64,000 bases of DNA from an uncultured Thermomicrobiales bacterium (GTDB lineage: Bacteria > Chloroflexota > Chloroflexia > Thermomicrobiales > UBA6265). Within the stretch, counting starts at the first letter, position 1. Every line of letters starts with the position of its first letter. The notes beneath the pieces were generated by a model. It did not search any database and was not told the origin of the DNA. It saw only the letters and a program-made list of their open reading frames with translations. Below, piece by piece: positions 1 through 13,188 of this stretch. The position numbers and the translations under genes were made by a program. The stretch lies in the NCBI GenBank assembly GCA_902806405.1, contig CADCWL010000011.1, positions 16,464 through 80,463 of the forward strand. Direction: 5' to 3'.

Positions 1-48
1 ACGAGCGTCCCGCCGGCCCTCTCCCGTTTTTGTTCGCTCCGGGCCGGC

Positions 49-3000
49 CTAACTGCCCGAGCGCCGGTAGATGAAGAGATCGAGCGAGCGGGGGTCCGTC
101 GCCAAGAGGTCGTCGGCGACGCCCTCGCCGACGAACGAGTAGAGGGTGACCCACCCGTTCGTCGTCGTCCCAATCGGCCGCCACAGGTTGACCAGTAGGT
201 AACGGCGCCCGCCGCCAAGGACGAGGTCCGGGTTGACGCCCTCGGTCTCGGCGGTTTGTTGCAACTCCTCGGACGCCGCGACCACGTCACCGCCTTCCGG
301 CACGTACTCGGCGATGACGTCGCCGTCGACCTTCACGCCGTAGAGACGATCGGGGTCGAGCGACTCCGGGTCCTCGGCGTAGAGGATGTTCGTCACGCTG
401 CTGTAGACGGATCGCTGCCAAGTGGCCTGACGGACGTACGTCTCGTCGCCGGTGACGACGACCTGCGGGTCACCGGTTACGGTGAAGGTGACCTCGAACG
501 ACGACGAGGCCTCGAAGCGGTAAAGGGTGTCCGCCGCTCGTCCGTCCCGCAGGAAGATGACCTGGCGGACGTCGATCCCCTCGGCTTGGTCCGCCTCGAA
601 CGGCCCGACGCAGCCGATCCGCGTCAATCGGACGTCCCCACCGGCGTCCTCTGCCCCGACGAAGCTGTACGCGATACCGGAAAGCTGGATTCTGGCGGGG
701 AGCCGCTCCGGCACCCCGTTGTCGCCGATCTGCCCGGGGTCACCCTGACATTGCCGCGGCAGCACCGGCACCTGGGCCACGACGCCTGTCGCCGCGGTCG
801 GTACGGGAGTCTGCCCGGTCTGCCCCGGCAAGGGCTGGACGCGAACGTTCGGGAGCGGCGTCGGCAGGGGCTGTGCCCGCGGCGCCTGGAGGGTGATCTG
901 GACCACCCCGGCCGGCGGCGGCACCACGTTTACGGTCACGTTGTTCACGTTGGTGACGTTGTTGACGACGGTAAAGGAGTTGACGCTGACCGGCGCCTCC
1001 ACGATCGTCGTCGAGTTGAACTCGTAGACACGATTGTCGATCACCGTGTAGCAGGTGGCGAGCGGGGCCTGTGCGGCGGCTTGCGGCGCCGGCGCAAAGA
1101 TCGGGAATGCGCCCGCGCAGCCAACTCGCTGCAGCCCGGCCTGACTCACGCTGACGCTAACCTCCGCACGGAACTCGAAGCGCGACTCGGCAAAGACGAG
1201 GTTGTTCAGGGTGGACGGGAAGCCCGCAGCGTTCAGCGCCGTGAAGCGTTGGAGCTCCCCTCCGTCGGAGAGGAAGACCTCGGCGAAGCCGACGGCGCCG
1301 CCACGGACGAAGAGCTCGCCGCCGCCGTCCAGTGTCGGGACCTGACCAAGGATCGCCGTGGTAGTCGTCCGGAGCGTCTCGATGGAGACGTTGACCTCGG
1401 TGCTGGCGTAGGCGTACTGGAACTCCTGCCCCTCAAAGGTATAGGCGAAGGACTGCCCCCCTGCCTCGGACGAGCACGGCTGGCCGAGGTCGATGGTACC
1501 GGCGGGAGTGATCGGCGCCTCTGGTACATAGCGGGCCACCACCCTTGCCGCGGCCACGGCGTAGATCTGGACGAACGGGCCTCGCAGCGTCTGAGCGATG
1601 AACCCGCGCCGCCCGCCGGAGGCCTGCGGGTCCTGCGACGCGAAGATGCCGAACGATGCGCCGGTCGTCTGGAGCGTATCGACCTGGATCAGCGACTGCG
1701 GATCGAGGTCGACCTCCAGATCAAAGAAGTATCGGATGCCCTGGACCTCGATCTCGCGCGGGAAGTCGGCCGGCACCGGCGGCGCCGCGTCGACCGGGAT
1801 CGACGAGACCGGCTCCGCGGGTGGCTCGACCGTCGGCAACGGCGTCGGCGAGACGGGCGCGTCGGTAGGCGGGGTCGGTTCCAGCTCGGCCGCCGGCGAG
1901 GCCTCAGCGGCCACCTCCGTTGGCGTCTCCGTCTCCGTGGTCGCCTCCGGCGTCTGCGCCTCCGTCTCTGTGGTCGCCTCCGTCGTTTGCGTCTCCGTCG
2001 TCGCCGGCGCCGCCTCCGTCGCGGGCGTCTCGGTCTCCGCGTCGGCGCCGGCCGTCTCGGGCGTGGCCTCGGCCGTCTCGGTCGGGGAGAGCGGCGTCTC
2101 CGTGGCGGCAACGGTCTCGGTGGCCGGGACCGCCGTCTCGGTCGGTGGTGGTGTCTCGGTCGGCACATCGGTCGGCGCGGGCGTCTCCGTCGCCGGGACG
2201 GCGGTCTCGGTTGGGGTTGCCGCCGCGGTCGGCTCTAGCGTCGGAAGCGGCGTCTCCGTGGCCTCCGGCGTCGGAATCGGCGTCTCGGTCGGCTCGGGCG
2301 TCTCGGTCGGCGGTGGCGGGGTCTCCGTCGGAGCGACCGTCTCGGTCGGCGGAACAGGCGTACCTGTCGGAGCAGTCGTCGCGGTCGGCGGTAACGGTGT
2401 TTCGGTCGGGACGGCCGTCTCGGTGGTAGCGGCTTGCGGCTCTTCGGTCATCGCCGCTCCCCCGACCGGGGTGCCGTCGCCATCGGCCGTCGGCGTGGTC
2501 GCCGCGAACGCGAGAACCCGCTGCGGCTGGTCGTTCAAGATGACGTAGAGTCGCTCCAGGCTGCCAGCCGCAACGCCCTCCTCCGCACGGGCGGGGAACG
2601 GACCGACGCAGCCCAGGCGATCAAGGGTAGTCGCGTCGACATCGTCGGTGACATTTCCCTCGAACGCGAAGGTCTGCCCGCCAAAGGCGATCGTCTGCCC
2701 GAGGTTCGTCGGCACCCCATCCTCGTCGAGCAGCACGAACCGATTCAGCGCGCCGTCGTCTCCAAAAAAGAGCTCGGGGAACGGCTGCGCCCCGGCTTCG
2801 GCGTAGATCGGCTGGCCGTCGCCGGTTTGGGTTACCGTCTCCAACTCTGCGGTTGAAAGGTCCAGCTCCAGGCCGGCGTACGCGTACTCCACCTCACCCA
2901 GAACCAACGGCGCGAAGTTCCCGGACTCGGCGAGACAGGACGCCTCGGCCGACGGCGTCCCCGACTCATCAAGAGGCAACTGCGCCAGGTAGCGGCCCGC

Positions 3001-3879
3001 TTGTCCGTCCCCGCCGGCCTCCGCCCCGTAGACGCGATCGAACGGTCCGGCTCCTTCCGTCGCCAACAGAGCGAGCCCACGGTCGGTCCCGATCTCCGTC
3101 AGCGCCTCCGTGTCGACCGGAACAGGGCGGTCGAGAGAGAATCGGGCGTCATCGAGCGCCACCTCGAGCGGGAAATCGCCGGCCCCGGCGGCGGGGGTCA
3201 CCGTCCCCTCGGGCTCGATTCCCGCGTCCTCCGTCGCCGCCGGCTCCCGCGTCGCCCCGACGTCGACGGGCGCGGTCGCCGCCGCGTCGACGACGGACGG
3301 AGCGGCGTCTGGGGTCAGCGCCGCATCCGTCGGCGTCCCCCCGGTCGGATCGGTGGCCGGTAGCCCTGCCGAGGGAGTATCGGTCTGGGCAACGCCTCCG
3401 ACGTCGGACGCCGCTTCCTCGGCGGCTTGGCTCCCCTCGGGCACGTAGCGCCCGAGGGGCTGGGGTCGGGTCTGGGCGGAGACGTAGACGCGGTCGAACG
3501 GCGGCGCCGCGCTCTCGGCGAAGAGGGTCAAGTCGCCCTGCTGTCCCAGCTCAATCAGGTCTGTCGGTGCTTCGGGGTCAACGCGGTCGAAGACGAAGTC
3601 TTCGCCGTTGATCTGGATCGCGGCGGGGAAACGCTGCGGGCGGGCGGGCGTCACCGCCTCGTCCGCTGGCGTCTCTCCCTGCCCCTGCGCCTGCCCTTGG
3701 GCCGCCTGCTCGTTCCGATTTCGGCCCGGATCCTGGGGGCGGTCCCGTTGGCGGGTGGCGGTGGGCGTCTCGTCGTTCTGGGCACCAATGGTGCCCTCGC
3801 CCGTAGCCAGCGGGAGAAGCAGCGCGGCGACCAGCCCCAAGATCGCGACGACGTGGAGCGTTCGGATGCGCATTGCCAT
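49..3879 (-). CDS. Large secreted modular protein, function unknown (Thr/Pro/Glu-rich central linker)
   Basis: The ORF is 1276 aa. It has a signal-like N-terminus (MAMRIRTLHVVAILGLVAALLLPLATGEG). An A-type module of about 60 aa (FxFDR...PFDRVY...GRYVPE) recurs. A B-type module ending RxGCxGxFP occurs on both sides of a roughly 200-aa T/P/E linker. I recognised no catalytic motif. Confidence 0.8.
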   Translation of the reverse strand: MAMRIRTLHVVAILGLVAALLLPLATGEGTIGAQNDETPTATRQRDRPQDPGRNRNEQAAQGQAQGQGETPADEAVTPARPQRFPAAIQINGEDFVFDRVDPEAPTDLIELGQQGDLTLFAESAAPPFDRVYVSAQTRPQPLGRYVPEGSQAAEEAASDVGGVAQTDTPSAGLPATDPTGGTPTDAALTPDAAPSVVDAAATAPVDVGATREPAATEDAGIEPEGTVTPAAGAGDFPLEVALDDARFSLDRPVPVDTEALTEIGTDRGLALLATEGAGPFDRVYGAEAGGDGQAGRYLAQLPLDESGTPSAEASCLAESGNFAPLVLGEVEYAYAGLELDLSTAELETVTQTGDGQPIYAEAGAQPFPELFFGDDGALNRFVLLDEDGVPTNLGQTIAFGGQTFAFEGNVTDDVDATTLDRLGCVGPFPARAEEGVAAGSLERLYVILNDQPQRVLAFAATTPTADGDGTPVGGAAMTEEPQAATTETAVPTETPLPPTATTAPTGTPVPPTETVAPTETPPPPTETPEPTETPIPTPEATETPLPTLEPTAAATPTETAVPATETPAPTDVPTETPPPTETAVPATETVAATETPLSPTETAEATPETAGADAETETPATEAAPATTETQTTEATTETEAQTPEATTETETPTEVAAEASPAAELEPTPPTDAPVSPTPLPTVEPPAEPVSSIPVDAAPPVPADFPREIEVQGIRYFFDLEVDLDPQSLIQVDTLQTTGASFGIFASQDPQASGGRRGFIAQTLRGPFVQIYAVAAARVVARYVPEAPITPAGTIDLGQPCSSEAGGQSFAYTFEGQEFQYAYASTEVNVSIETLRTTTTAILGQVPTLDGGGELFVRGGAVGFAEVFLSDGGELQRFTALNAAGFPSTLNNLVFAESRFEFRAEVSVSVSQAGLQRVGCAGAFPIFAPAPQAAAQAPLATCYTVIDNRVYEFNSTTIVEAPVSVNSFTVVNNVTNVNNVTVNVVPPPAGVVQITLQAPRAQPLPTPLPNVRVQPLPGQTGQTPVPTAATGVVAQVPVLPRQCQGDPGQIGDNGVPERLPARIQLSGIAYSFVGAEDAGGDVRLTRIGCVGPFEADQAEGIDVRQVIFLRDGRAADTLYRFEASSSFEVTFTVTGDPQVVVTGDETYVRQATWQRSVYSSVTNILYAEDPESLDPDRLYGVKVDGDVIAEYVPEGGDVVAASEELQQTAETEGVNPDLVLGGGRRYLLVNLWRPIGTTTNGWVTLYSFVGEGVADDLLATDPRSLDLFIYRRSGS
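1840..2470 (-). repeat. Imperfect tandem DNA repeats encoding the TETP/PTET linker of the large secreted protein
   Basis: Two adjacent 33-nt units (1928-1960 and 1961-1993) differ at 4 positions. The string gccgggac(c/g)gc(c/g)gtctcggt(c/t)gg occurs at 2123-2145 and again at 2192-2214. The whole stretch translates to reiterated TET/PTE/ATE units. Confidence 0.7.
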
Positions 3880-4144
3880 CGGCTCGTCTTCTCCCTCGTC
3901 CGAACGCCCGTCTCGCCGTACGCGGAGGCGTCAACCTACGGGCGGTGACATCCCCTCCCCCCACGCGGACGAACCGCGTCGGGCGTTGTGCTAACGACTG
4001 TATGCTAGCATGCGTCAACGGCGGCACTCCGAGGCCGTTGCCAGACCGGCACGATTCCCCCTCCAGTCGGGGGGCGCGGCGTCCACTTGATTGCCGGGCG
4101 TACCCGGCGACACGGGTGGTGATGAGCGAGGAAGGGGCGAGTCG

Positions 4145-5350
4145 ATGCGTTCATCGGCGCGGGCTTTGGGGTGGGCGCGACGCGCGATCGGCGCACTGGC
4201 GTTCCTAGCGCTGATCGTCGGCGTCTTCGGCGGGCTGGGCCTGTCACGGGCAACGGAGGCCGCAGCCCAGGACGGGGACCAGGCCGCGGCACGGGAAGTC
4301 AACGTCGAGCTGATCCTTGACCTCTCCGGCTCGATGGCAGCCGACATCGGCGGCGGCGAGACCCGGATGGAAGCTGCCAAGCGGGTCATGAACGACGTGG
4401 TCGACGCCCTTCCGGAGCGGGAGGGAATTAACGTCGGGTTCCGGATCTATGGCCACGAAGGCAACAACACCGAGGCCCAGCGCGAGGTCAGCTGCCAATC
4501 GTCCGAGCTTGTCGTGCCCATCGAGGGCGTCGACAAGGAGGCGCTGCGCGAGCAGGTCGATCTCGCGCAGCCAATCGGGTGGACCCCGATCGACCTTTCC
4601 CTCCGGCGGGCGGGAGGGGATTTCCAGGCCGGGGAGGGTCTCTCGAACAACATCGTCCTGGTGACGGACGGCGAGGAGACGTGCGGGGGTGACCCGTGCG
4701 CGACTGCCGCCTCCCTCAGCCAAGGTGACGCGGCCGTGACGACGCACGTCGTGGGCTTCGCGCTGACCGAGGTCCAGCGGCAGCAGGTGAGCTGCATCGC
4801 CGAGGAGGGCGGCGGACTCAACCTCGGCGCCGCGAACGCAAACGAGCTCAGTACCGCCCTCTTTACGATCCTCCAAGAGCTCCAAGTTGTCGTCAACAAC
4901 GGGTTCCTCGAGATCGAGGAGATCGGCGGGCTCTTCCCCCGCGCCACCATCACCTTCGTCGTTAGCGGCGACCAGAGCCCACGCGCGCCGGTGACGCTCA
5001 CCGACAACAATCGGGTCGAGCTGGCGGTCGGACTCTACGACGTGACGTGGGCGAACCAGAGCGGCCAGGAGAGCCAAATTCGGGTCAACATCGAGGCCGG
5101 CCGCACCACCTGGGTGCGCGGCTCGCTTCTCAAATTCCCGCAGGGCGCCGGCGAGATCTACGTCGTGCGGGACATCGCGGGGCTGACCCTTTGGCAGGCG
5201 CCCTTCGAGCAGGGGAACTACATCTGGGTGCTCCCCGGGATCTACACGATGGAATTGGTCGAGCGCGTTGGCGACCCCGTGTTGATCATGGCGCAGGTGC
5301 AGACCTTGCCGGGTAGCGCCACCCAGGTCGAGATCTTCACGGCCCCGTAG
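4145..5350 (+). CDS. von Willebrand factor A (VWA) domain protein with N-terminal membrane/signal segment and C-terminal beta-rich repeats
   Basis: MIDAS-type DxSxS motif (LILDLSGSM), and IVLVTDGEETCGGDPC typical of VWA. I moved the start to ATG 4145, which is preceded by GAAGGGG. A hydrophobic segment ALAFLALIVGVFGGLGL is present. The C-terminus holds two similar beta modules (GLYDVTW.., GIYTMEL..). Confidence 0.8.
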   Translation: MRSSARALGWARRAIGALAFLALIVGVFGGLGLSRATEAAAQDGDQAAAREVNVELILDLSGSMAADIGGGETRMEAAKRVMNDVVDALPEREGINVGFRIYGHEGNNTEAQREVSCQSSELVVPIEGVDKEALREQVDLAQPIGWTPIDLSLRRAGGDFQAGEGLSNNIVLVTDGEETCGGDPCATAASLSQGDAAVTTHVVGFALTEVQRQQVSCIAEEGGGLNLGAANANELSTALFTILQELQVVVNNGFLEIEEIGGLFPRATITFVVSGDQSPRAPVTLTDNNRVELAVGLYDVTWANQSGQESQIRVNIEAGRTTWVRGSLLKFPQGAGEIYVVRDIAGLTLWQAPFEQGNYIWVLPGIYTMELVERVGDPVLIMAQVQTLPGSATQVEIFTAP

Positions 5351-5363
5351 TCCAGCGCCGACC

Positions 5364-5909
5364 GTGGCTGGGCCACTTGGGGAGTCAGACGAGACCGGGC
5401 CGTGGGAGGACATCCTGCGCCCCGGTCTCGACGTTGTATTCGTCGGTTACAACCCATCCCTCCCTGCCTGGCGAACCGGTCACTACTACGCCAATCCCGG
5501 GAACCGCTTCTACCGGCTGTTGTACGAGAGCGGTCTCACGCCCCGGCTCCTGGTCCCGAGCGACGACCACCTGCTCCCCGACTTCGGGATCGGCGCCACC
5601 GATCTCCTCCCACTGCCGTCGGCGCGGGCCGATATGATCCCCGCTGCCCGCTTCAAGGAGGCGGCCCCGCTCCTGCGCGAGAAGCTGCGGAATTTCGCTC
5701 CCCGTTCGGTGTGCTGCAACGGGATCGGCGTTTACCGCCACCTCGTCGGTGGACCACCGGCCGGGCTCGGCCTCCAACCGGAACCGATCGGCACCGCCGC
5801 CCTCTTCGTCGTTCCCTCGACGAGCGGGCTTTGCAACGGCCGAGCCTCCCAACGCCTGGCGGCCTTTCGGGATTTGGCCGCCTGGGTTGAGGAGCGGCGT
5901 TGCCGCTGA
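5364..5909 (+). CDS. mug: G:T/U mismatch-specific uracil-DNA glycosylase (Mug/TDG, UDG family 2)
   Basis: The N-terminus (EDILRPGLDVVFVGYNPSLPAWRTGHYYANPGNRFYRLL) aligns with E. coli Mug (EDILAPGLRVVFCGINPG...FAHPANRFWKVI). A PSTSG motif lies near the C-terminus. The start codon is GTG. Confidence 0.8.
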   Translation: MAGPLGESDETGPWEDILRPGLDVVFVGYNPSLPAWRTGHYYANPGNRFYRLLYESGLTPRLLVPSDDHLLPDFGIGATDLLPLPSARADMIPAARFKEAAPLLREKLRNFAPRSVCCNGIGVYRHLVGGPPAGLGLQPEPIGTAALFVVPSTSGLCNGRASQRLAAFRDLAAWVEERRCR

Positions 5910-6036
5910 CCCGGTCGGCTGCTCTGGTCGCCCCGCGTCCGCATCTCGACTTCGGCTCGGGGGCCACGTTGCGCTCCTCTGGGGCGGGTGCCATGCTGCC
6001 GGGGACACGGAGGCGAGATGGGATGGAGGAGGGTTC

Positions 6037-7116
6037 GTGGAGTCTGGGCAACGGGTACGGGTTGGCGTCATCGGCTGCGGCGCCGGGCTCTTTCACCTGG
6101 AAGGGTACGCGGAGGAACCGCGGGCCGAGATCGTCGCCCTGGCGGGCCTGGAGACGGATCGCTGCCGGGAGCTTGCGGAGCGGTTCGGGATTCCCAACGT
6201 CTACCGCGACTACACCGAGTTGCTCGCCAACCCCGCGATCGCTGCCGTCAGCATCGCCGTGCCAAACCACCTCCACCTCCCGGTAGCGGTCGCCGCCGTG
6301 GCGGCGGGCAAGCACGTCCTGGTGGAAAAGCCGCTGGCGCGTAACGCGGCCGAGGGAGAGCAGATGGTTGCCGCTGCGGAGGCGGCCGGCAAGGTGCTCG
6401 CGATCGCCTTCCAGCGGCGCGGCCGGCACGATGTCCGGATCGTGAAGGGGGAGGTGGAGCGCGGGGCCCTCGGGCGGATCTACCATGCCAAGGCGTACTG
6501 GATGCGGCGCTCAGGGATTCCCGGTCTCGGCAGCTGGTTCACCAACAAGGAGCAGGCCGGCGGCGGACCCCTGATCGACCTCGGAGTCCATGTCCTCGAC
6601 ATGGCGCTCTGGATGATGGGCAATCCAAAGGTGCAGTCCGTCAGCGCCGCCACGTACGCCGAACTCGGTCCCCGCGGCACCGGCCAGTGGCAGGGCAGCC
6701 GGTTCACGATCGCCCCCGGTGTCGCGTATGAGGTGGAGGATTTTGCGACCGCCCTGCTCCGTTTCGAGGACGGAGCAACCCTCCAGCTCGATGCCTCCTG
6801 GGCGGCCTACACCGGGCACACCGACGAGTTCGGCGTCTCTCTGCTCGGTTCGAAGGGCGGCGCCGCTATCGACGTCAAGGACTACGCCCAGACCGGGACG
6901 CTCCGACTCTTTGGCGAGATTGACGGCACGCCGACGGTGACCGAGCCGCGCCTCGTCCCCCGCACCGGTCACGCCGACATCATCCACGGCTTCGTCGACG
7001 CCGTTCTCGACGGCGTCCCGGTCAGTCCGAGCGGCGTCGAGGGTCTCGAGCGGGTACGGCTGATCGAGGCGATCTACCGTTCCGCGGAGGAAGGCCGAGA
7101 GATCGCCTTCAGGTAG
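6037..7116 (+). CDS. Gfo/Idh/MocA family NAD(P)-dependent oxidoreductase
   Basis: Rossmann N-terminus VRVGVIGCGAGLFHLEGY and an EKPLA motif. I trimmed the start to GTG 6037, which follows GGAGGAGGG. The upstream part of the tracked ORF is low-complexity. Confidence 0.8.
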   Translation: MESGQRVRVGVIGCGAGLFHLEGYAEEPRAEIVALAGLETDRCRELAERFGIPNVYRDYTELLANPAIAAVSIAVPNHLHLPVAVAAVAAGKHVLVEKPLARNAAEGEQMVAAAEAAGKVLAIAFQRRGRHDVRIVKGEVERGALGRIYHAKAYWMRRSGIPGLGSWFTNKEQAGGGPLIDLGVHVLDMALWMMGNPKVQSVSAATYAELGPRGTGQWQGSRFTIAPGVAYEVEDFATALLRFEDGATLQLDASWAAYTGHTDEFGVSLLGSKGGAAIDVKDYAQTGTLRLFGEIDGTPTVTEPRLVPRTGHADIIHGFVDAVLDGVPVSPSGVEGLERVRLIEAIYRSAEEGREIAFR

Positions 7117-7191
7117 ACCCCGATCGACGGCGGGCGGAAGCCCGTACACCGCCCAATTCTCAAGCGATCTGACTCAACCGACGGGGGAACA

Positions 7192-7917
7192 ATGGACCGA
7201 TCACTGCAGGTCACCGTCTGGAACGAGTACCGCCATGAGCGGGAAGAGGAGCGGTTCGCGAAGATCTACCCGGAAGGCATCCACGGCGCGATCGCGGCCG
7301 GATTGAGGGAACACTCCGACCTGGTCGTCCGCACCGCCACCCTCGACGAGGCGGAGCACGGGTTGTCACCGGCGGCCCTGGACACGACCGACGTCCTGCT
7401 CTGGTGGGGACACAAGGCGCACGACGCCGTCGACGACGAAACGGTCGCCCGCGTGCAGGCACGGGTCCTCGCCGGGATGGGCCTTATCGTCCTCCACTCC
7501 GGCCACTTCTCCAAGATCTTTAAGCGGCTGATGGGCACCTCCTGCGACCTTAAGTGGCGGGAGGCAGGCGACCGCGAGCGGCTCTGGGTGGTGGACCCCG
7601 GCCACCCGATCGCCGCGGGCCTCGGCGAATACATTCAGCTCGACCAGGAGGAGATGTACGGCGAGCACTTCGACATTCCGCCGCCGGAAGCCCTCGTCTT
7701 CGTCAGTTGGTTCTCCGGCGGCGAAGTCTTCCGCTCGGGCTGCTGCTACACGCGGGGAGCCGGCAAGATCTTCTACTTCAGACCCGGCCACGAAAGCCAC
7801 CCGACCTACTTCCAACCCGATGTCCGCCGGGTCGTCGCCAACGCCGTGCGGTGGGCCGCCGCCGAGGATCTGCCACGGCGCACGTTCGGCAATGTCCCGC
7901 CGCTCGAGACGGTCTAA
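7192..7917 (+). CDS. ThuA-like (trehalose utilisation) domain protein
   Basis: The N-terminus [13 protein letters not shown]... is characteristic of the ThuA family. It sits next to a Gfo/Idh/MocA gene, a common pairing. Confidence 0.75.
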
Positions 7918-7950
7918 GCGGCAAACTCCGCGGGAGGGGGAACGGAGCCG

Positions 7951-9144
7951 GTGGCGACTTTCGACGCGATCGTGCTCGGCGGCGGCACGATGGGCACCGC
8001 CGCGGCGTGGGCACTCGCGAAGCGCGGCGCGACGACCCTGGTTTTGGAGCAGTTCGCCCACGTCCACCGGCTCGGGGCCCACGGCGGGCGGACCCGGGTG
8101 ATCCGCCATGCCTACGCCGAGTCGCCCGAGTACGTGCCGATCGTTCAACGCGCGGATGATCTGTGGCTCGAACTAGAGCGTGAGGCGGGCAACCGCGTCC
8201 TCCACCGGACCGGCGGCGTGGAGCTGTCGGCCCCCGGCTACGGGCACGCTCGCGCGGCCCGGCGGAGTGCGGAGCTCCACGGACTCCCCCACGAGTGGAT
8301 CTCGCCGGCGGAGGTCAACCGCCGCTGGCCGGCGATGTCGGTGCCTGAGGATTGGGATGCCCTCTACAGCCCTCAGGTCGGCTTCCTGGAGACCGAGGCG
8401 TCGCTGCGCGCCCTCGCGACCGTCGCTCGCCGTCGTGGCGCAACCATTCACGAGGGAGAACCGGTTCGGGGGTGGCAGGCAGATAGCTCCGGCGTCACCG
8501 TGGCGACCAACGCCGCCACCTACCGCGCCGATAGCCTGATCGTGACAGCCGGGGCCTGGACGGGCGGTCTCCTCGGCGAGCTCGGTCTGCCGTTGACGCT
8601 GCTGCGGAAGGTCCTCTGGTGGTTAAGGGTCGACGACCCAGCGCCGTTCTCGGTCGGCCGCTTCCCCGTCTTCATCGCCGACTCGGCCGCCGGCGAGATC
8701 TACGGCTTCCCGATCCATGACCATCCCGGGCTCAAGATCGCGGACCACCGCGGCGGCTCACCGACCACGGTCGAGACGATCGACCGAACCGTCCGGGACG
8801 ACGAGGAAAGGGGCGTCGTGGCGGGTGCTCAACAGTTGTTCCGTGGTGTGACGGATCGCGTCCTGGAAAGCCTCGTCTGCCACTACACGATGACGCCCGA
8901 CGCCGACTTCGTGGTCGACCGCCATCCCACTCGGCCGAACGTGACCATCGGGGCCGGCTTCTCCGGTCACGGCTTCAAGTTCGCGACCGCAATCGGTGAG
9001 ATGCTGGCCGACCTTGCGCTGGACGCGTCCGTCGAGCCCGTGCCGCGACTCGCGCTCGCCCGTCTTGCGGCCCTCTCGTCGCCTCAGGTGACCGACACTG
9101 GAGTCCCGATCGCACGCGGATCGGGTCTCCGCGCCCTTCGCTAG
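7951..9144 (+). CDS. FAD-dependent amine oxidase of the monomeric sarcosine / N-methyltryptophan oxidase family
   Basis: GxGxxG dinucleotide fold (IVLGGGTMGTAAAWALAKRG) and the family motif GFSGHGFKF near the C-terminus. GTG start after GGGAGGGGGA. Confidence 0.75.
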   Translation: MATFDAIVLGGGTMGTAAAWALAKRGATTLVLEQFAHVHRLGAHGGRTRVIRHAYAESPEYVPIVQRADDLWLELEREAGNRVLHRTGGVELSAPGYGHARAARRSAELHGLPHEWISPAEVNRRWPAMSVPEDWDALYSPQVGFLETEASLRALATVARRRGATIHEGEPVRGWQADSSGVTVATNAATYRADSLIVTAGAWTGGLLGELGLPLTLLRKVLWWLRVDDPAPFSVGRFPVFIADSAAGEIYGFPIHDHPGLKIADHRGGSPTTVETIDRTVRDDEERGVVAGAQQLFRGVTDRVLESLVCHYTMTPDADFVVDRHPTRPNVTIGAGFSGHGFKFATAIGEMLADLALDASVEPVPRLALARLAALSSPQVTDTGVPIARGSGLRALR

Positions 9145-9509
9145 GAGGGGATCTTCCCGCCGTCGACGTCCGGCAGTCCGTCCTCCGCGCTCACCGAGCC
9201 GAGCGAAGTGTCGGGGTTGCGCGGGTCCGACCCTCTCGGCCAGTCGCCGTTGGCCACCTCCCACTCTTCGACGATGTCGTGCAGGCGTGCGTCGCTCATT
9301 AAAAAGCCCGTCGCGGACGTTTTCCGGGCGCTGCCGCTGTCGGTGATTTCGGCCAGCCCCTCCCTGAGGTCGCGGACAAACGCCCGCCGACGGTCGGCAT
9401 CGAAGCGTCTGCTGAACGGAAAGAGCCGGTCGTCCTTCGTCTGCAGGTAGACCACGACCCGCTCGGCCAAACGGTGGTCGTAGTTCGGCTCCGGATCGAT
9501 CTGGGCCAC
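9141..9509 (-). CDS. Hypothetical protein (122 aa)
   Basis: GTG start preceded by GGAGAAGGAGAC. Third-position GC is high throughout. No recognisable motif. The 3' end overlaps the convergent oxidase gene by 4 nt. Confidence 0.55.
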   Translation of the reverse strand: MAQIDPEPNYDHRLAERVVVYLQTKDDRLFPFSRRFDADRRRAFVRDLREGLAEITDSGSARKTSATGFLMSDARLHDIVEEWEVANGDWPRGSDPRNPDTSLGSVSAEDGLPDVDGGKIPS

Positions 9510-9664
9510 CCGCGAGTCTCCTTCTCCATCTCCATCCGGACGGGCAGTCCGGTCCTCACCGCAACGCCCCGCCGACGGTCGGCGCTTGGGCGGTCGCCGT
9601 CCGACGCTTCATGCCGTACCCGCGCTTCTACGCAGCGATCGATCCGGTCGCGAAGGATGCCGGC

Positions 9665-10444
9665 CTAGCTCGGCCAACTCCCGCCATCGACGTTGAGCGT
9701 CTGCTGGGTAATGTAGTCGGAGTCGGCGGACGCCAGGAAGACGGCCGCCCCGGTGACGTCTTCCGGCTGCTCGATGCGGCCGAGAGGGATCGACTTGATG
9801 AACGTGGCCTTCGGCTCGCCGACCTCCATGTTCAGCAGCTTCGCGAACTGCTTGTCAACATCGACCCAGAGGGGCGTGTCCACGATCCCGGGCGCGATGC
9901 CGTTGACGTTGATCCTGTGGTCGGCCAGCGCGAGCGCCATGGACTGGGTCATGCTGATCACGCACGCCTTGCTCGCGCAGTAGGCCAGGACCAGCGCTTC
10001 GCCCCTCCGACCCGCCTGGGAAGCGAGGTTCACGATCTTGCCGCCCCTCCCCTGCTCGATCATCCGCCGCGCCGCGGCCTGGCTGCAAAAAAGCACGCCT
10101 TTGCAGTTGACGCCGAACATGAAATCCCAGTCTGCCTCGGTCGTCTCGAGGAATGGGATAATTTTGATCACCCCGGCATTGTTGACGAGGATGTCGACGC
10201 TTCCGAAGCGCTCGACCGCGGTCGCCACCATCGCGTCGGCCTGCGCCGCATTGCGCACGTCAACGCCCGTGCCGACCGCCTCTCCCCCCTGCGCCGTGAT
10301 CTCCTGGGCGACGCCGTCAGCCCCTTCCCGGTTCAGATCGGCGACAACGACCTTGGCCCCTTCCTCCGCGTAGCGGAGCGAGATCGCCCGGCCCATCCCC
10401 TGCGCGCCCCCGGTGACGATCGCCACCTTCCCTGCCAGCTTCAT
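9665..10444 (-). CDS. Short-chain dehydrogenase/reductase (SDR), sugar/polyol dehydrogenase-like
   Basis: TGGAQGMG cofactor motif and the YCASK catalytic YxxxK. I trimmed the start to ATG 10444, which has the upstream RBS GGAGGAGAGGGAG. Confidence 0.85.
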   Translation of the reverse strand: MKLAGKVAIVTGGAQGMGRAISLRYAEEGAKVVVADLNREGADGVAQEITAQGGEAVGTGVDVRNAAQADAMVATAVERFGSVDILVNNAGVIKIIPFLETTEADWDFMFGVNCKGVLFCSQAAARRMIEQGRGGKIVNLASQAGRRGEALVLAYCASKACVISMTQSMALALADHRINVNGIAPGIVDTPLWVDVDKQFAKLLNMEVGEPKATFIKSIPLGRIEQPEDVTGAAVFLASADSDYITQQTLNVDGGSWPS

Positions 10445-10463
10445 CTCCCTCTCCTCCCCGATC

Positions 10464-11651
10464 TTACGGGATATGTTGCTCGATCCGGTAGCGATCGAGC
10501 GTTGCGGTGTTGAGCCGGACGCCAAGACCCGGTCCCTCCGGCAGCGCGATCTTTCCGTCCGCGCCGACCGTGAGCGGCTCGTCGAACAGCTCCGAGCGGA
10601 GCGGGTTCGGGTTCTGGTCGAACTCCAGCAAGCCGGCGTTGGGCAGCGACGCGATCAGGTGCATATTTGCGATCGAGGCCACGGCCGATGAGAAGACGTG
10701 CGGAATGACCGGCAGTCCATGCGCCTGGGCAAGCGCTGCCACCTTCCGCGTCTCCGTGATCCCGCCGGTCCAGATCACATCGGGCTGGACGATGTCGACC
10801 GCCCGCCGCGAGATGAGGTCTCGGAAACCGCCCAACCCTGTCTCTGTCTCGTAACCGGCCACCGGCGTATCGAGCCGGTGAGCGACCTCCGCACTCCCCT
10901 CCACGTCCTCCGTCGCCACCGGCTCCTCCAGCCAGGCGATGTCCTGGTCATCCACCCGGCGCATGAAGCGGAGCGCGACCGGCGGCGTCCACGCATTGTT
11001 TGCGTCGATCGCGAGCCGCACCCCGGGACCGACCGCCGCCCGCGCTGCGCGCACCCGCTCGACGTCCTGCTCGAGGGTGGCGAGGGCGTAGTCGTTGGCC
11101 GGCATGTCGTGGAGCGGGTTGAGCATCACGTCCGGATTACGACCAACCTTGATCTTGACCGTTCGAAAGCCACGCGCTGCGTACCCGCCGACCTCCTCGG
11201 CGAGGGCCGCGGCGTCCTTGCCGCCGGCGTAGAAGCCGGCGGACGCGTAGACGTCGAGCGTCTCGCGGTATCCTCCCAGCAGCCGGTAGAGCGGCGTTCT
11301 GGTCGCCTGCCCGATGATGTCCCAGAGCGCGATGTCGATCCCGCTGATGGCCATCATCAGCATGCCCCGCCGCCCGCGCTGGTGCGCTCGGGTGGCCATC
11401 ATGCTCCAGAGCCGCTCCACCCGGAACGGGTCCTGCCCCAGGATCGTCCGCCGTAGTTCTCCCAGGATCAGCGCCTCGGTGCTCTCCAGGAAGCCTCCGT
11501 AGGCCGCTGCTTCGCCCAGCCCCACAATCCCCTCGTCCGTGTGGACCTGGACCAGGAGCGTCGGTCGCTCCGGCATGTAATGGATCGCGTCCGCCATCGG
11601 CACCGGCATCTCGTACCGGAGCTTGATGGTCGTCACGTCCGTGATCAGCAC
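10464..11651 (-). CDS. Enolase-superfamily enzyme (mandelate racemase/muconate lactonizing family; probable sugar-acid dehydratase)
   Basis: Family motifs KIKVG, IDANNAW and WLEEP. I trimmed the start to GTG 11651 (RBS GGGGAGAG). The remaining 241 codons of the tracked ORF are Arg/Pro-rich and run into the divergent gene. Confidence 0.8.
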   Translation of the reverse strand: MLITDVTTIKLRYEMPVPMADAIHYMPERPTLLVQVHTDEGIVGLGEAAAYGGFLESTEALILGELRRTILGQDPFRVERLWSMMATRAHQRGRRGMLMMAISGIDIALWDIIGQATRTPLYRLLGGYRETLDVYASAGFYAGGKDAAALAEEVGGYAARGFRTVKIKVGRNPDVMLNPLHDMPANDYALATLEQDVERVRAARAAVGPGVRLAIDANNAWTPPVALRFMRRVDDQDIAWLEEPVATEDVEGSAEVAHRLDTPVAGYETETGLGGFRDLISRRAVDIVQPDVIWTGGITETRKVAALAQAHGLPVIPHVFSSAVASIANMHLIASLPNAGLLEFDQNPNPLRSELFDEPLTVGADGKIALPEGPGLGVRLNTATLDRYRIEQHIP

Positions 11652-11716
11652 CCGTCTCTCCCCGTCTCGCGGCGGCTGAGGAAGGGCACACCCCTTCTCC
11701 CTCCACGGTGGGAATG

Positions 11717-11744
11717 ATTTTATCGGGGGGCTGCCGAGGGTCAA
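11717..11744 (-). promoter_or_regulatory. Sigma70-like promoter for the dehydratase-SDR operon
   Basis: On the minus strand: TTGACC (-35), a 16-nt spacer, then TAAAAT (-10). It lies in a locally AT-richer patch about 60 nt upstream of GTG 11651. Confidence 0.4.
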
Positions 11745-11956
11745 GAGGGGGACCTCCCGTGCGGCACCGGCGTCTGGCGCGGCGGGGATGTAGAATCGCG
11801 CCGCAGCGGACGACGGTTCGGGGACGGCGTGGGACACGGAGGCAATGCGCGCCCCGGCCGTTGCTCGAGCGGCCCGCCGGGGGTCCGGCACTGGGCCGGT
11901 GAACGATGCCGCGTCGACGGGGACGCGGCGGAACGCGGTGAGAGGAGACCAGGACG

Positions 11957-13015
11957 ATGGACCGACATTTTTCCCGGCGCGGGGTGCTCCGGGTCGGGGC
12001 GGCGGGCGCCGGCGCGGTCGCCTTCGGTGGATTCCGGCTGCGGCGGGTAGGCGCCGCCCCGCCGCCGCTTGAACAGAAGGAGACCTACCGGGTCGCCTTC
12101 GCCCAGGTCGAGGAAAACAACCCCTGGCGGATCGCTCAGACCGAGAGCATGCGCTCGGAGGCGGAGCGCCTGGGTTACGAGCTGCTCTACAGCAACGCCG
12201 AAGGCTCTGAGGCTCGCCAGATCGCGAACGTCGATCAGGCGATCGCGCAGGGCGTCGACATGATCTTCCTCGCCCCCCGCTCCGAGACCCCGCTCGCGCG
12301 GGCCGTGCTGAACGCGCGCCGAGCGAATATCCCCGTCGTCTGCCTCGACCGGGACGTCGACAACAACGTCGCAAAGGTCGGCGAGGACTACATCTGCTTC
12401 ATCGGCTCCGACTTTGTGCAGGAAGGCGCCCGTGCCGCGGAGTGGCTTGCCCGGACGTTGAACGGCGAAGGGGAGATCATCGAGCTGCAAGGGACCACCG
12501 GCTCTTCGCCGGCGATCGACCGCGGCCGTGGCTTCGCCGACTTCCTGGCCGGCACCTATACCCCCAGCGCCGCTGGCGGCGCCGCAACGCCTGCCGCCCC
12601 GCCGTCTGGCGGCTTCCCCGGGATGCGGGTCGTCGCCTCCCAGGACGGCGACTTCGCCCGGGACGAGGGCCGGCAAGTCTTCGAAACGCTCTACCAGGCG
12701 AACCCGACGGCCACCGCCGTCTACGCGCACAACGACGAGATGGCGATCGGTGCCATCCAGGCGCTTGAGGCCCAGGGCCGGGTTCCCGGCCGTGACGTCA
12801 CCATCGTCTCCGTCGACGGTTCCCGCGAGGCGCTCCAGAACATCGTCGACGGGAAGCTTGGGGCGACGGTCGAATGCAACCCGCGCTTCGGTCCGATCGC
12901 CTTTGAGACGCTCCAGCGCTACGCCGCCGGGGAGACGATCGAACCCCAAATCATCAACCAAGATCGCTTCTTCGACGCGACCAACGCGACCGAATTCTTG
13001 GACGAAGCCTACTAA
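11957..13015 (+). CDS. ABC sugar transporter periplasmic binding protein (YtfQ/RbsB-like, PBP type 1)
   Basis: Twin-arginine-like signal (SRRGVLRVGAAGAGAV). The pattern YRVAFAQ...NPW...QAIAQGVDMIFLAP is typical of type-1 sugar binding proteins. It is followed by an ATPase and two RbsC-like permeases. Confidence 0.8.
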   Translation: MDRHFSRRGVLRVGAAGAGAVAFGGFRLRRVGAAPPPLEQKETYRVAFAQVEENNPWRIAQTESMRSEAERLGYELLYSNAEGSEARQIANVDQAIAQGVDMIFLAPRSETPLARAVLNARRANIPVVCLDRDVDNNVAKVGEDYICFIGSDFVQEGARAAEWLARTLNGEGEIIELQGTTGSSPAIDRGRGFADFLAGTYTPSAAGGAATPAAPPSGGFPGMRVVASQDGDFARDEGRQVFETLYQANPTATAVYAHNDEMAIGAIQALEAQGRVPGRDVTIVSVDGSREALQNIVDGKLGATVECNPRFGPIAFETLQRYAAGETIEPQIINQDRFFDATNATEFLDEAY

Positions 13016-13040
13016 CGGGTCGCACACCGCGGACTCGACC

Positions 13041-13089
13041 CAAGGAGGGTGGTGGAAGCCGGCCGTTGCCGGCCCCGCCGCCCTCCTTG
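13041..13089 (+). other. Intercistronic stem-loop after the binding-protein gene
   Basis: CAAGGAGGG (13041-13049) pairs perfectly with CCCTCCTTG (13081-13089). An inner GCCGGC..GCCGGC pairing is also present. No T-run follows. Confidence 0.45.
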
Positions 13090-13188
13090 CAGCGGTCGCG
13101 CCTCGGCCAGCGGAATTGTCATGCCACCCGCGTCGCCCCTTGTCACTCTTCTGCCGGGTCGTTCCCCACACCGCCGCTCGGAGTCGTC

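What the first reader, a model, noticed from the sequence alone, without database searches (positions are those of the whole stretch)
49..3879. 1276-aa secreted protein built from duplicated, unrecognised modules
The protein has a signal-like N-terminus and no motif I can assign to a known enzyme or adhesin family, yet it is clearly modular.
- A module of about 60 aa recurs at least four times. Examples are INGEDFVFDRV...PPFDRVYV...GRYVPE, DDARFSLDRP...GPFDRVYG...GRYLAQ, VQGIRYFFDLE...GPFVQIYA...ARYVPE, and the C-terminal ...GVKVDGDVIAEYVPE.
- A larger module occurs once on each side of the central linker. It begins with a Cys (CLAESGNFAP / CSSEAGGQSF) and ends in RLGCVGPFP / RVGCAGAFP. A shorter copy ends in RIGCVGPFE.

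The conserved Cys pairs suggest disulfide-stabilised extracellular domains. A protein this large, with internal duplication and no assignable family, is the best candidate in this window for an undescribed envelope or secreted component.
Basis: seen in the sequence. Interest (0 to 1): 0.6.

Follow-up and report, generated by a model that had tools for sequence, protein, structure and literature searches.

The report
Secreted protein of novel triple-β-repeat domains
This is a real, conserved, exported 1276-residue protein of soil Thermomicrobiales, built from an undescribed three-repeat β domain and always encoded beside a secreted VWA protein; it defines a new domain family, but its function is still only inferred.

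Summary
ORF 49..3879(-) encodes a 1276-aa acidic protein with a Sec-type signal peptide, a 239-aa Thr/Pro-rich linker and real internal duplications. It has no hit in Pfam, NCBIfam, PHROGs, PDB sequences, or by Foldseek against PDB and BFVD.

The "large" module is two more copies of the ~62-aa "small" unit. Small plus large together form one compact ~235-aa domain of three six-stranded β units (AF2 pLDDT 92.5, pTM 0.89), with an invariant Cys pair.

This domain also occurs in other secreted proteins, fused to PQQ-type β-propellers or to SpaA and M23 cell-wall-hydrolase domains.

The family is small: 139 clusters among 1.84 billion proteins. It is confined to Thermomicrobiales/Chloroflexia MAGs plus the cultured actinobacterium Desertimonas flava. 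It is under purifying selection (dN/dS about 0.1).

An orthologous secreted VWA/MIDAS protein lies adjacent in every locus where neighbouring DNA is available.

Most likely this is a cell-surface or extracellular scaffold. Its triple-repeat domains would act as binding or anchoring modules, and its conserved C-terminal domain would work with the VWA partner. That function is inferred, not shown.

The parts
49..3879 (-). Whole gene: 1276-aa precursor. The mature protein is about 129 kDa, pI 4.05, with 1 Lys and 0 His. It is identical to 'hypothetical protein AVDCRST_MAG19-341', uncultured Thermomicrobiales bacterium.
3781..3879 (-). Sec-type signal peptide, residues 1-33: basic n-region MAMRIR, hydrophobic core VVAILGLVAALLLPLA. 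The probable cleavage site IGA|QN aligns with the family's VQA|QD.
   Evidence: Read from the sequence; the position is conserved in the family. The cleavage site is inferred.
3436..3618 (-). Most homologues have a complete three-unit domain here. In this protein the other two units are replaced by low-complexity sequence (residues 150-235, window 3175-3432).
2497..3177 (-). Three-unit domain 1 (residues 235-461). It consists of the small module N2 plus large module A, i.e. units at 239-300, 325-382 and 397-461. The invariant Cys pair is C315 (2935-2937) and C424 (2608-2610).
   Evidence: AF2 pLDDT 92.5, pTM 0.89, 3 x 6 strands; unit HMM; hhalign between units 76-95%; invariant residues.
1780..2496 (-). 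Thr/Pro/Ala/Glu-rich linker, residues 462-700 (T 27.6%, P 22.2%). It is variable in length among homologues and presumably extended or disordered.
1012..1764 (-). Three-unit domain 2 (residues 706-956). It consists of the small module N3 (with an insertion) plus large module B. Cys pair C802/C921.
   Evidence: hhalign of n3/b1/b2 against units 1/2/3 gives 99.2/98.7/99.5%. The AF2 model is poor for the B part.
760..1011 (-). Inter-domain region, residues 957-1040. It contains the conserved PPPG-VQITLQ...PTPTPLPNVR motif and a query-specific VVNNVTNVNNVTVNVV insertion (about 919-966). The model has low confidence here.
52..759 (-). C-terminal domain (residues 1041-1276), the most conserved part of the family. 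It has the Cys pair C1044/C1090, one unit of the third type (1064-1125, RIGCVGPFE), a second six-stranded segment ending in VDGDVIAEYVPE, one helix, and a final β subdomain (RRYLLVNLW..GTTTNGWVTLY..DPRSLDLFIYRR).
   Evidence: (pLDDT 80-90)
3880..4144 (.). Shared divergent intergenic region between the two genes. It contains a block that is conserved in nine homologous loci and weaker here.
   Evidence: no Rfam hit; no sigma-70 consensus match
4145..5350 (+). Divergently transcribed partner gene: a 401-aa secreted VWA protein.
- Signal peptide ending AAA|QD.
- Intact MIDAS residues: DLSGS, GWTP, TDGEE.
- Four conserved Cys.
- A conserved ~170-aa C-terminal β region with no family match.
- The conserved start is the ATG at 4145, not the TTG at 4091.

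Best explanation
The gene encodes a Sec-exported, disulfide-stabilised, strongly acidic extracellular scaffold protein.

Its building block is a previously undescribed ~62-aa unit of six β strands. Three such units, of distinct types 1-2-3, pack into one compact ~235-aa domain. The protein carries one orphan unit and two complete three-unit domains, separated by a 239-aa Thr/Pro-rich stalk. It ends in a highly conserved C-terminal domain that starts with one type-3 unit.

I infer that the three-unit domains are binding or retention modules for an envelope or extracellular polymer. In this they would resemble the triple SLH or CWB2 wall-binding repeats of monoderm bacteria. I also infer that the invariant C-terminal domain is the part that cooperates with the co-encoded secreted VWA protein, probably through metal-dependent (MIDAS) binding of an acidic side chain.

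Shown: gene reality, export signal, repeat hierarchy, domain autonomy, gene pairing and purifying selection.
Inferred: cell-surface location, the ligand, and the VWA interaction.
For: Real and constrained gene:
- 42 homologues, mostly of similar length; 139 clusters at 50% identity in the exhaustive search.
- dN/dS 0.08-0.20 in six pairs.

Export: a conserved signal peptide, and no cytoplasmic-type domains.

Repeat hierarchy:
- The iterated unit HMM finds 9 copies.
- Profile-profile alignment of units 1, 2 and 3 runs in register at 76-95% probability.
- The AF2 model of residues 235-470 has pLDDT 92.5 and pTM 0.89, with 3 x 6 strands.

Autonomous, mobile domain. The same three-unit domain, with the same invariant Cys pair, occurs in other proteins:
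- at the C-terminus of PQQ/BamB-type β-propeller proteins (P0179, P0171, P0188, P0176);
- N-terminal to SpaA and Peptidase_M23 domains, plus an SLT-like stretch seen by eye, in P0166;
- in P0198 and P0164.

Copy number of the domain varies from 1 to 3 between orthologues, while the C-terminal domain is constant.

Partner gene:
- An orthologous VWA gene (46-74% identity) is adjacent in all loci with neighbouring DNA, about 27 in all. This includes the most divergent members and Desertimonas flava. Outer neighbours differ between loci.
- The MIDAS residues are conserved.

Analogy: wall-binding CWB2 and SLH repeats typically come in threes and are fused to varied passenger domains, including amidases (PMC5817068).
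Against: - No experiment or expression data bears on location or function.
- There is no recognisable anchor: no LPXTG, no lipobox Cys, no C-terminal TM segment, no SLH/CWB2/LysM (read from the sequence). The protein could simply be released into the medium.
- The ligand of the three-unit domain is unknown.
- The other proteins that carry the domain also share a second unassigned N-terminal Cys-rich domain, which could be their anchor instead.
- One of them lies in a locus with transposase and integrase genes.
- The AF2 model of the second three-unit domain was poor.
- The VWA interaction rests on gene adjacency alone.
Confidence: 0.45

Rival explanations
1. It is a secreted enzyme or lectin that acts on an external polymer. 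The three-unit domains would be carbohydrate-binding-module-like, the Thr/Pro stretch would be the usual CBM-to-catalytic-domain linker, and the conserved C-terminal domain would be an unrecognised catalytic or sugar-binding domain.
For: - Thr/Pro linkers joining folded modules are typical of secreted actinobacterial glycoside hydrolases (own knowledge). A related fragment hits Pfam PT repeat PF04886.
- The domain is fused to enzymes and propellers elsewhere.
- The invariant residues of the domain are Asp, Arg, Tyr, Glu and Phe, as in sugar-binding sites.
- The C-terminal domain has invariant R..YSS, VD, N.DL and GTTTNG motifs.
Against: - No CBM or GH family hit, even at E up to 10.
- No carbohydrate-utilisation genes are conserved around it; outer neighbours vary.
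- It does not explain the strict pairing with a VWA protein.
Confidence: 0.2
2. It is an adhesin or biofilm-matrix protein. The protein and its VWA partner would be released and would mediate attachment to mineral or soil surfaces, or to other cells, in desert soils.
For: - VWA/MIDAS domains are common in adhesion (own knowledge).
- The protein is very acidic (pI 4.05), repetitive and long.
- The sources include desert and other soil metagenomes (isolate names).
Against: - No hit to any known adhesin repeat such as Big, Cadherin, FN3, PKD or SpaA.
- Nothing distinguishes this reading from the scaffold model without experiments.
Confidence: 0.15
3. It is an S-layer or other lattice-forming structural coat protein, with the three-unit domains as wall anchor and the C-terminal domain as the self-assembly domain.
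For: - The architecture parallels S-layer proteins that carry a triple SLH or CWB2 wall anchor (PMC5817068).
- Acidic pI, few Cys and almost no Lys.
Against: - Three-unit domains lie on both sides of the linker.
- Copy number and length vary from about 700 to 1400 aa between orthologues.
- The 239-aa disordered stalk is atypical of lattice proteins.
- No expression-level evidence.
- The family was found in only about 30 of 185,579 species genomes. The two-peptide scan would miss divergent members.
Confidence: 0.12
4. It is a component of a phage or mobile element (tail fibre, or surface protein of a conjugative element), not a cellular envelope protein.
For: - Four of 13 family members give sub-threshold hits to PF20953, a phage baseplate attachment insertion domain (best E 6e-4; 15-16 bits against a cut-off of 27 in the two full-length members re-scanned).
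- One protein sharing the domain sits next to transposase and integrase genes.
- The cassette occurs in an actinobacterium, which suggests horizontal transfer.
Against: - No PHROG hit for any module.
- No significant BFVD match.
- Neighbours in the window and in homologous loci are housekeeping genes, with conserved synteny to GFO_IDH_MocA/ThuA/DAO.
- No phage or conjugation genes nearby.
Confidence: 0.03
5. It is a spurious ORF or a high-GC artefact.
For: 69% GC sequence produces many long ORFs on all frames.
Against: Homologues across two phyla, dN/dS about 0.1, a conserved signal peptide and Cys residues, and a high-confidence fold.
Confidence: 0.01

Closest known systems
Triple cell-wall-binding repeats of monoderm bacteria: CWB2 (PF04122, e.g. 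Clostridioides difficile Cwp proteins) and SLH (PF00395)
   Same: Both are three tandem repeats of roughly 55-90 aa that together make one unit. Both are appended by linkers to varied secreted passenger domains, including wall hydrolases, and both sit in Sec-exported proteins (PMC5817068).
   Different: - No sequence or Pfam match.
- The unit here is all-β with six strands, whereas SLH and CWB2 are helical or α/β (own knowledge).
- Here there is an invariant disulfide-type Cys pair.
- Binding to any wall polymer is untested.
- The family is found in Thermomicrobiales and one Acidimicrobiia species, not in Firmicutes.
Secreted modular enzymes of Actinobacteria with Pro/Thr-box linkers (Pfam PT repeat PF04886)
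   Same: A long Thr/Pro-rich linker joins independently folded extracellular modules. A related fragment hits PF04886.
   Different: No CBM or catalytic family could be assigned to any module.
BatA/BatB-type bacterial VWA proteins (PDB 4jdu, 3ibs), compared with the neighbouring gene only
   Same: VWA fold with MIDAS residues. These are the best PDB sequence matches (E 2.5e-4 and 7.7e-3). Pfam VWA scores 30.8 bits against a cut-off of 23.8.
   Different: No MoxR, DUF58 or TPR genes of a Bat operon nearby. The neighbour has a cleavable-looking signal peptide, four conserved Cys and an extra unassigned ~170-aa β region.
Gram-positive pilus tip adhesins with VWA domains and their pilin partners (e.g. 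RrgA type)
   Same: A secreted VWA protein is encoded next to a large β-rich surface protein.
   Different: No LPXTG motif, no sortase gene, and no SpaA/CnaB domains in this protein (sequence reading).
Spindlin-type tandem Tudor-like β-barrel repeats
   Same: Three tandem small β units. Spindlin chains recur among the weak Foldseek hits.
   Different: E at least 0.2, probability at most 0.11, TM at most 0.19, so this is not a credible structural match. Spindlin is a eukaryotic nuclear protein.

Membership tests
Any Pfam-A / NCBIfam family (whole protein and each module) | Profile match at or near the curated threshold | tested here: not met
   0 families at E up to 1 for the whole protein. 0 families at E up to 10 for six separate modules. 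Only noise across 13 family members.
SLH / CWB2 / LysM / SH3b wall-binding domains | Match to PF00395, PF04122, PF01476 or the SH3b models | tested here: not met
SLH / CWB2-like wall anchors (functional class) | Non-covalent binding to peptidoglycan or a secondary wall polymer | not testable with these tools
   Needs binding assays with sacculi or wall polysaccharide.
Sortase-anchored (LPXTG) surface proteins | C-terminal LPXTG motif, hydrophobic segment and basic tail | tested here: not met
   The C-terminus reads ...DPRSLDLFIYRRSGS, with no LPXTG or hydrophobic tail.
Bacterial lipoproteins | Lipobox with Cys at +1 of the signal-peptide cleavage site | tested here: not met
   The first Cys is residue 315.
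Known adhesin repeat families (Big, Cadherin, FN3, PKD, SpaA/CnaB, Rhs/YD, β-propeller) | Profile match or significant structural match | tested here: not met
   Pfam: none. Foldseek against PDB: best E 0.055 for model 1 and 0.097 for model 2, TM at most 0.23.
Solved structures (any PDB fold) | Significant sequence or structure similarity | tested here: inconclusive
Phage structural proteins | PHROG or BFVD match, phage gene context | tested here: not met
   PHROGs: 0 hits for the three modules. BFVD best E 0.012, probability 0.07. PF20953 hits lie below the cut-off. Neighbours are housekeeping genes.
VWA domain proteins (neighbouring gene 4145..5350) | PF00092 match above the gathering score | tested here: met
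   30.8 bits against a cut-off of 23.8.
VWA domain proteins (neighbouring gene 4145..5350) | Intact MIDAS motif DxSxS...T...D | tested here: met
   DLSGS, GWTP and TDGEE are conserved in the orthologues that cover those columns.
S-layer proteins | Self-assembly into a 2-D lattice covering the cell | not testable with these tools
   Only compositional hints are available: pI 4.05 and few Cys.

The most novel reading that the evidence does not exclude
The three-unit β domain is a new class of non-covalent envelope-anchoring module of Chloroflexota (Thermomicrobiales), a functional counterpart of SLH and CWB2 with an unrelated, previously unseen fold. On this reading, the protein plus its MIDAS-bearing VWA partner form a hitherto unknown metal-dependent surface complex, one that has also been transferred to an actinobacterium.
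Probability: 0.2. Interest if true: 0.65.

Novelty: new variant of a known kind. Interest (0 to 1): 0.42.

Why it matters
Thermomicrobiales and related Chloroflexota are abundant in arid soils, yet their cell surface is almost uncharacterised.

This family supplies three things:
- a well-defined new extracellular domain: about 235 aa, three β units, an invariant Cys pair, a high-confidence model, and no detectable relative in Pfam or PDB;
- a strictly conserved two-gene cassette with a secreted VWA protein, which gives a concrete interaction to test;
- a cultured organism, Desertimonas flava SYSU D60003, that carries a minimal version of the cassette and so makes experiments possible.

If the domain proves to be a wall- or polymer-binding module, it would add a new surface-display mechanism for monoderm-type bacteria. 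It would also be a useful marker for annotating secreted proteins in these lineages. If not, it is still a DUF-level domain definition. That is useful but not surprising.

Tried and rejected
- A self-BLASTP of the protein returned no off-diagonal hits. I replaced it with Smith-Waterman scoring against shuffles.
- Pfam, NCBIfam, PHROGs and PDB-sequence searches on the whole protein, on modules and on family members gave nothing usable.
- Sub-threshold hits to PF20953 (phage baseplate insertion domain) were followed up with BFVD and PHROGs and dropped.
- Foldseek of both AF2 models against PDB, and of model 1 against BFVD, gave only non-significant generic β hits: propellers, Rhs, Spindlin, sliding clamp, NisI, LolA.
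I used the alignment of the C-terminal half instead.
- The third word-indexed homology search, with A4, was swamped by linker words and gave only three fragments.
- Two hits in the exhaustive search are low-complexity artefacts: P0178 (eukaryotic cadherin) and P0186 (SprB/PKD, T9SS).
- The 1257-aa unannotated protein near the D. flava homologue is unrelated to this family. By eye its motifs resemble 2-oxoglutarate dehydrogenase.
- The unit HMM did not detect the unit in the VWA protein or in any other ORF of the window.
- Rfam and promoter/terminator scans of the intergenic region found nothing.
- The third segment of the C-terminal domain (1213-1276) could not be shown to be a further copy of the unit (hhalign at most 47%).


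Full report
**1. The observation**

The ORF listing gives one ORF at 49..3879 on the minus strand: ATG start, 1276 aa. The region is 68-73% GC and carries many overlapping spurious ORFs on other frames. Gene reality therefore had to be shown by other means.

The protein is identical to a deposited 'hypothetical protein AVDCRST_MAG19-341 [uncultured Thermomicrobiales bacterium]'.

The internal repeats are real. Smith-Waterman scores were compared with 200 shuffles:

| Comparison | z-score |
|---|---|
| Large modules A (306-470) vs B (796-960) | 27 |
| A vs the C-terminal region | 9.7 |
| Small modules N1/N2/N3 vs each other | 5.9-9.8 |

Pfam, NCBIfam and PDB-sequence searches found nothing, for the whole protein or for six separate pieces at E up to 10.

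**2. Anatomy**

*Units.* An HMM seeded on N1/N2/N3 and iterated over the family finds nine copies of a ~62-aa unit. They lie at 88-148, 239-300, 325-382, 397-461, 709-787, 814-881 (weak), 894-956, 1064-1125 and 1144-1195 (partial). As a control, the same HMM hits no other ORF among the 691 six-frame ORFs of the window.

Independent profile-profile alignment of the three unit positions, using 14 diverse sequences, gives in-register matches at 95%, 86% and 76% probability.

*The three-unit domain.* AlphaFold2 on residues 235-470 (N2 + A), with 42 aligned sequences, gives pLDDT 92.5 and pTM 0.89. It shows three consecutive blocks of six β strands. The three units thus form one compact domain of about 235 aa.

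N3 + B is the same domain: hhalign gives 99.2, 98.7 and 99.5% to unit types 1, 2 and 3. Its model was poor, however.

*The C-terminal domain.* Residues 1041-1276 are the most conserved part of the family and are modelled at pLDDT 80-90.
- It begins with a type-3 unit (97.7%).
- The next two β segments resemble the unit only weakly (at most 60%).

*Other features.*
- Residues 462-700 form a Thr/Pro/Ala/Glu-rich linker (T 27.6%, P 22.2%).
- Most homologues have a further complete three-unit domain at the N-terminus. The query keeps only its first unit, followed by low-complexity sequence.
- The mature protein is about 129 kDa, pI 4.05, with one Lys and no His.
- The N-terminus is a typical Sec signal peptide. 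The likely cleavage site IGA|QN aligns with the family's VQA|QD.
- Three Cys pairs are conserved: 315/424, 802/921 and 1044/1090. C315 and C424 are invariant in all 14 diverse copies of the domain. C943 is not conserved.

**3. Family, distribution and selection**

- The word-indexed search found 42 homologues. More than half are about 1250-1440 aa; the rest are shorter or truncated. None has a Pfam domain.
- A search with the C-terminal domain alone added 32 more, mostly fragments.
- An exhaustive hmmsearch with a profile of residues 700-1276 against 1.84 billion representatives found only 139 proteins at E up to 1e-3.
- A scan of 185,579 species genomes found 31 loci. All are in Thermomicrobiales/Chloroflexia MAGs (one Sphaerobacteraceae), except one in the cultured actinobacterium Desertimonas flava SYSU D60003.
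- The D. flava contig is 99.94% identical to part of a 168-kb metagenome contig.
- The D. flava version is minimal: one three-unit domain, a Thr/Pro linker and the C-terminal domain.
- Copy number of the three-unit domain ranges from 1 to 3 among orthologues, while the C-terminal domain is constant.
- dN/dS over the C-terminal ~560 codons is 0.08-0.20 in six pairs.

Neither is met.

**4. The domain occurs in other proteins**

The exhaustive search also recovered proteins that have the three-unit domain but not the C-terminal domain.

| Protein | Architecture |
|---|---|
| P0179, P0171, P0188, P0176 | PQQ/BamB-type β-propeller followed by the domain |
| P0166 | The domain, two SpaA domains, an SLT-like stretch (seen by eye only) and Peptidase_M23 |
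| P0198 | The domain plus SpaA |
| P0164 | DUF3466-like repeats plus the domain |

Their alignment with the query's two copies shows invariant D16, R62, Y63, C81, A101, E104, R146, P156, G189, C190, G192 and F194.

The domain is therefore an autonomous, mobile extracellular module. P0166 lies beside transposase and integrase genes, a SpaA protein and an M23+SLT protein.

**5. The neighbour**

The divergent gene encodes a secreted VWA protein.
- Pfam PF00092 scores 30.8 bits against a cut-off of 23.8. The nearest PDB sequences are BatA/BatB-type.
- Aligning nine orthologues shows the conserved start at the ATG at 4145.
- The same alignment shows a signal peptide, MIDAS residues (DxSGS, GWTP, TDGxE) and four conserved Cys.
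- A conserved ~170-aa C-terminal β region has no family match.

An orthologue (46-74% identity) is adjacent in every locus that includes neighbouring DNA, about 27 loci in all. It is almost always divergent and upstream; in L028 it lies downstream. The pairing includes D. flava and the most divergent family members. Genes further out differ between loci.

The other neighbours in the window are unrelated housekeeping or metabolic genes: UDG-family glycosylase, GFO_IDH_MocA oxidoreductase, ThuA and DAO.

**6. Comparison with known structures and families**

- Foldseek against PDB gave no match at E up to 0.001 for either model. The best were E 0.055 and 0.097, with TM at most 0.23.
- BFVD gave nothing significant.
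- PHROGs gave nothing for the three modules.

**7. Interpretation**

*Shown:*
- a real, constrained gene;
- an export signal;
- a hierarchy of unit, three-unit domain and multi-domain protein;
- a domain shared with other secreted proteins;
- an obligate gene pair with a MIDAS-bearing secreted VWA protein.

*Inferred:*
- The three-unit domains are binding or retention modules for an envelope or extracellular polymer.
- The conserved C-terminal domain works with the VWA protein, perhaps by MIDAS coordination of an invariant acidic residue.

The closest functional analogy is the triple SLH or CWB2 wall-binding repeat, which is fused to varied passengers (PMC5817068). Membership of those families was tested and is not met.

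Rival readings cannot be excluded without experiments: CBM-like modules on an unknown enzyme, an adhesin or matrix protein, or an S-layer protein. The phage/mobile-element reading and the spurious-ORF reading are unlikely.

**8. Verdict**

This is a new domain family within a familiar kind of protein: a modular, linker-connected, secreted surface protein. It is of moderate interest. It becomes more interesting if the domain proves to be a new envelope-anchoring module, or if the VWA complex is real.

Noticed in passing
window 3880-4144 (weak copy around 3960-4010); L001, L006, L009-L012, L014, L016, L017 intergenic regions: A conserved non-coding block (GCCGCCGCATGGAGCGTGCCA ... GTGGCCTAGTTCRTGCGCGT) lies between the two divergent genes in nine homologous loci. 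It is much weaker in the window. It may be a shared promoter or operator, or a 5'-UTR element. No Rfam hit and no sigma-70 consensus match.
   Followed up: partly
L035 (Desertimonas flava NZ_QKYK01000055.1), L005: The whole two-gene cassette is present in a cultured Acidimicrobiia actinobacterium: VWA 58% and C-terminal domain 41% identical to the window. Every other genome hit is Thermomicrobiales/Chloroflexia. This suggests horizontal transfer between desert-soil phyla. The deposited D. flava protein (P0072, 214 aa) is a truncated gene call; the ORF continues upstream through a Thr/Pro linker.
   Followed up: partly
L042 (locus of P0166), 1-13135: Two proteins carrying the three-unit domain (P0166 and a 720-aa SpaA protein) sit with a second M23+SLT hydrolase, DDE transposase fragments, a phage-type integrase and a type I restriction fragment. 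The arrangement looks like an integrative or conjugative element encoding surface proteins.
   Followed up: no
P0166, P0198, P0179, P0188, P0164 N-termini (about residues 30-145): These proteins share a second unassigned ~110-aa Cys-rich N-terminal domain (GTVTV.A..CP...DPNG...FALT...VVFC...C.W), followed by a Pro/Thr linker. No Pfam hit was reported for it.
   Followed up: no
window 3175-3432 (residues 150-235): Compared with the family consensus, the query has lost units 2 and 3 of its first three-unit domain. Ala/Thr/Gly/Pro-rich low-complexity sequence stands in their place.
   Followed up: partly
window about 919-966 (residues about 972-987): A query-specific insertion, VVNNVTNVNNVTVNVV, falls in a region that is gapped in most homologues. 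It looks like a short tandem duplication.
   Followed up: no
window 49-3879: The composition is extreme: one Lys, one Met and no His in the 1243-aa mature protein, with pI 4.05. Arg is essentially the only basic residue.
   Followed up: no
window 4091-4145: The mechanical ORF list starts the VWA gene at TTG 4091. Alignment with orthologues places the real start at ATG 4145 (MRSSARALGW...).
   Followed up: yes
L028 8523-9734: In this one Chloroflexia MAG, the VWA gene lies immediately downstream of the large gene on the same strand, instead of divergently upstream. The pair is kept despite the rearrangement.
   Followed up: no
L006 5573-8927; L010 3976-4845: The large gene (L006) and the VWA gene (L010) are split into several called genes or truncated. 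These are probably frameshift errors in the assemblies rather than real pseudogenes.
   Followed up: no
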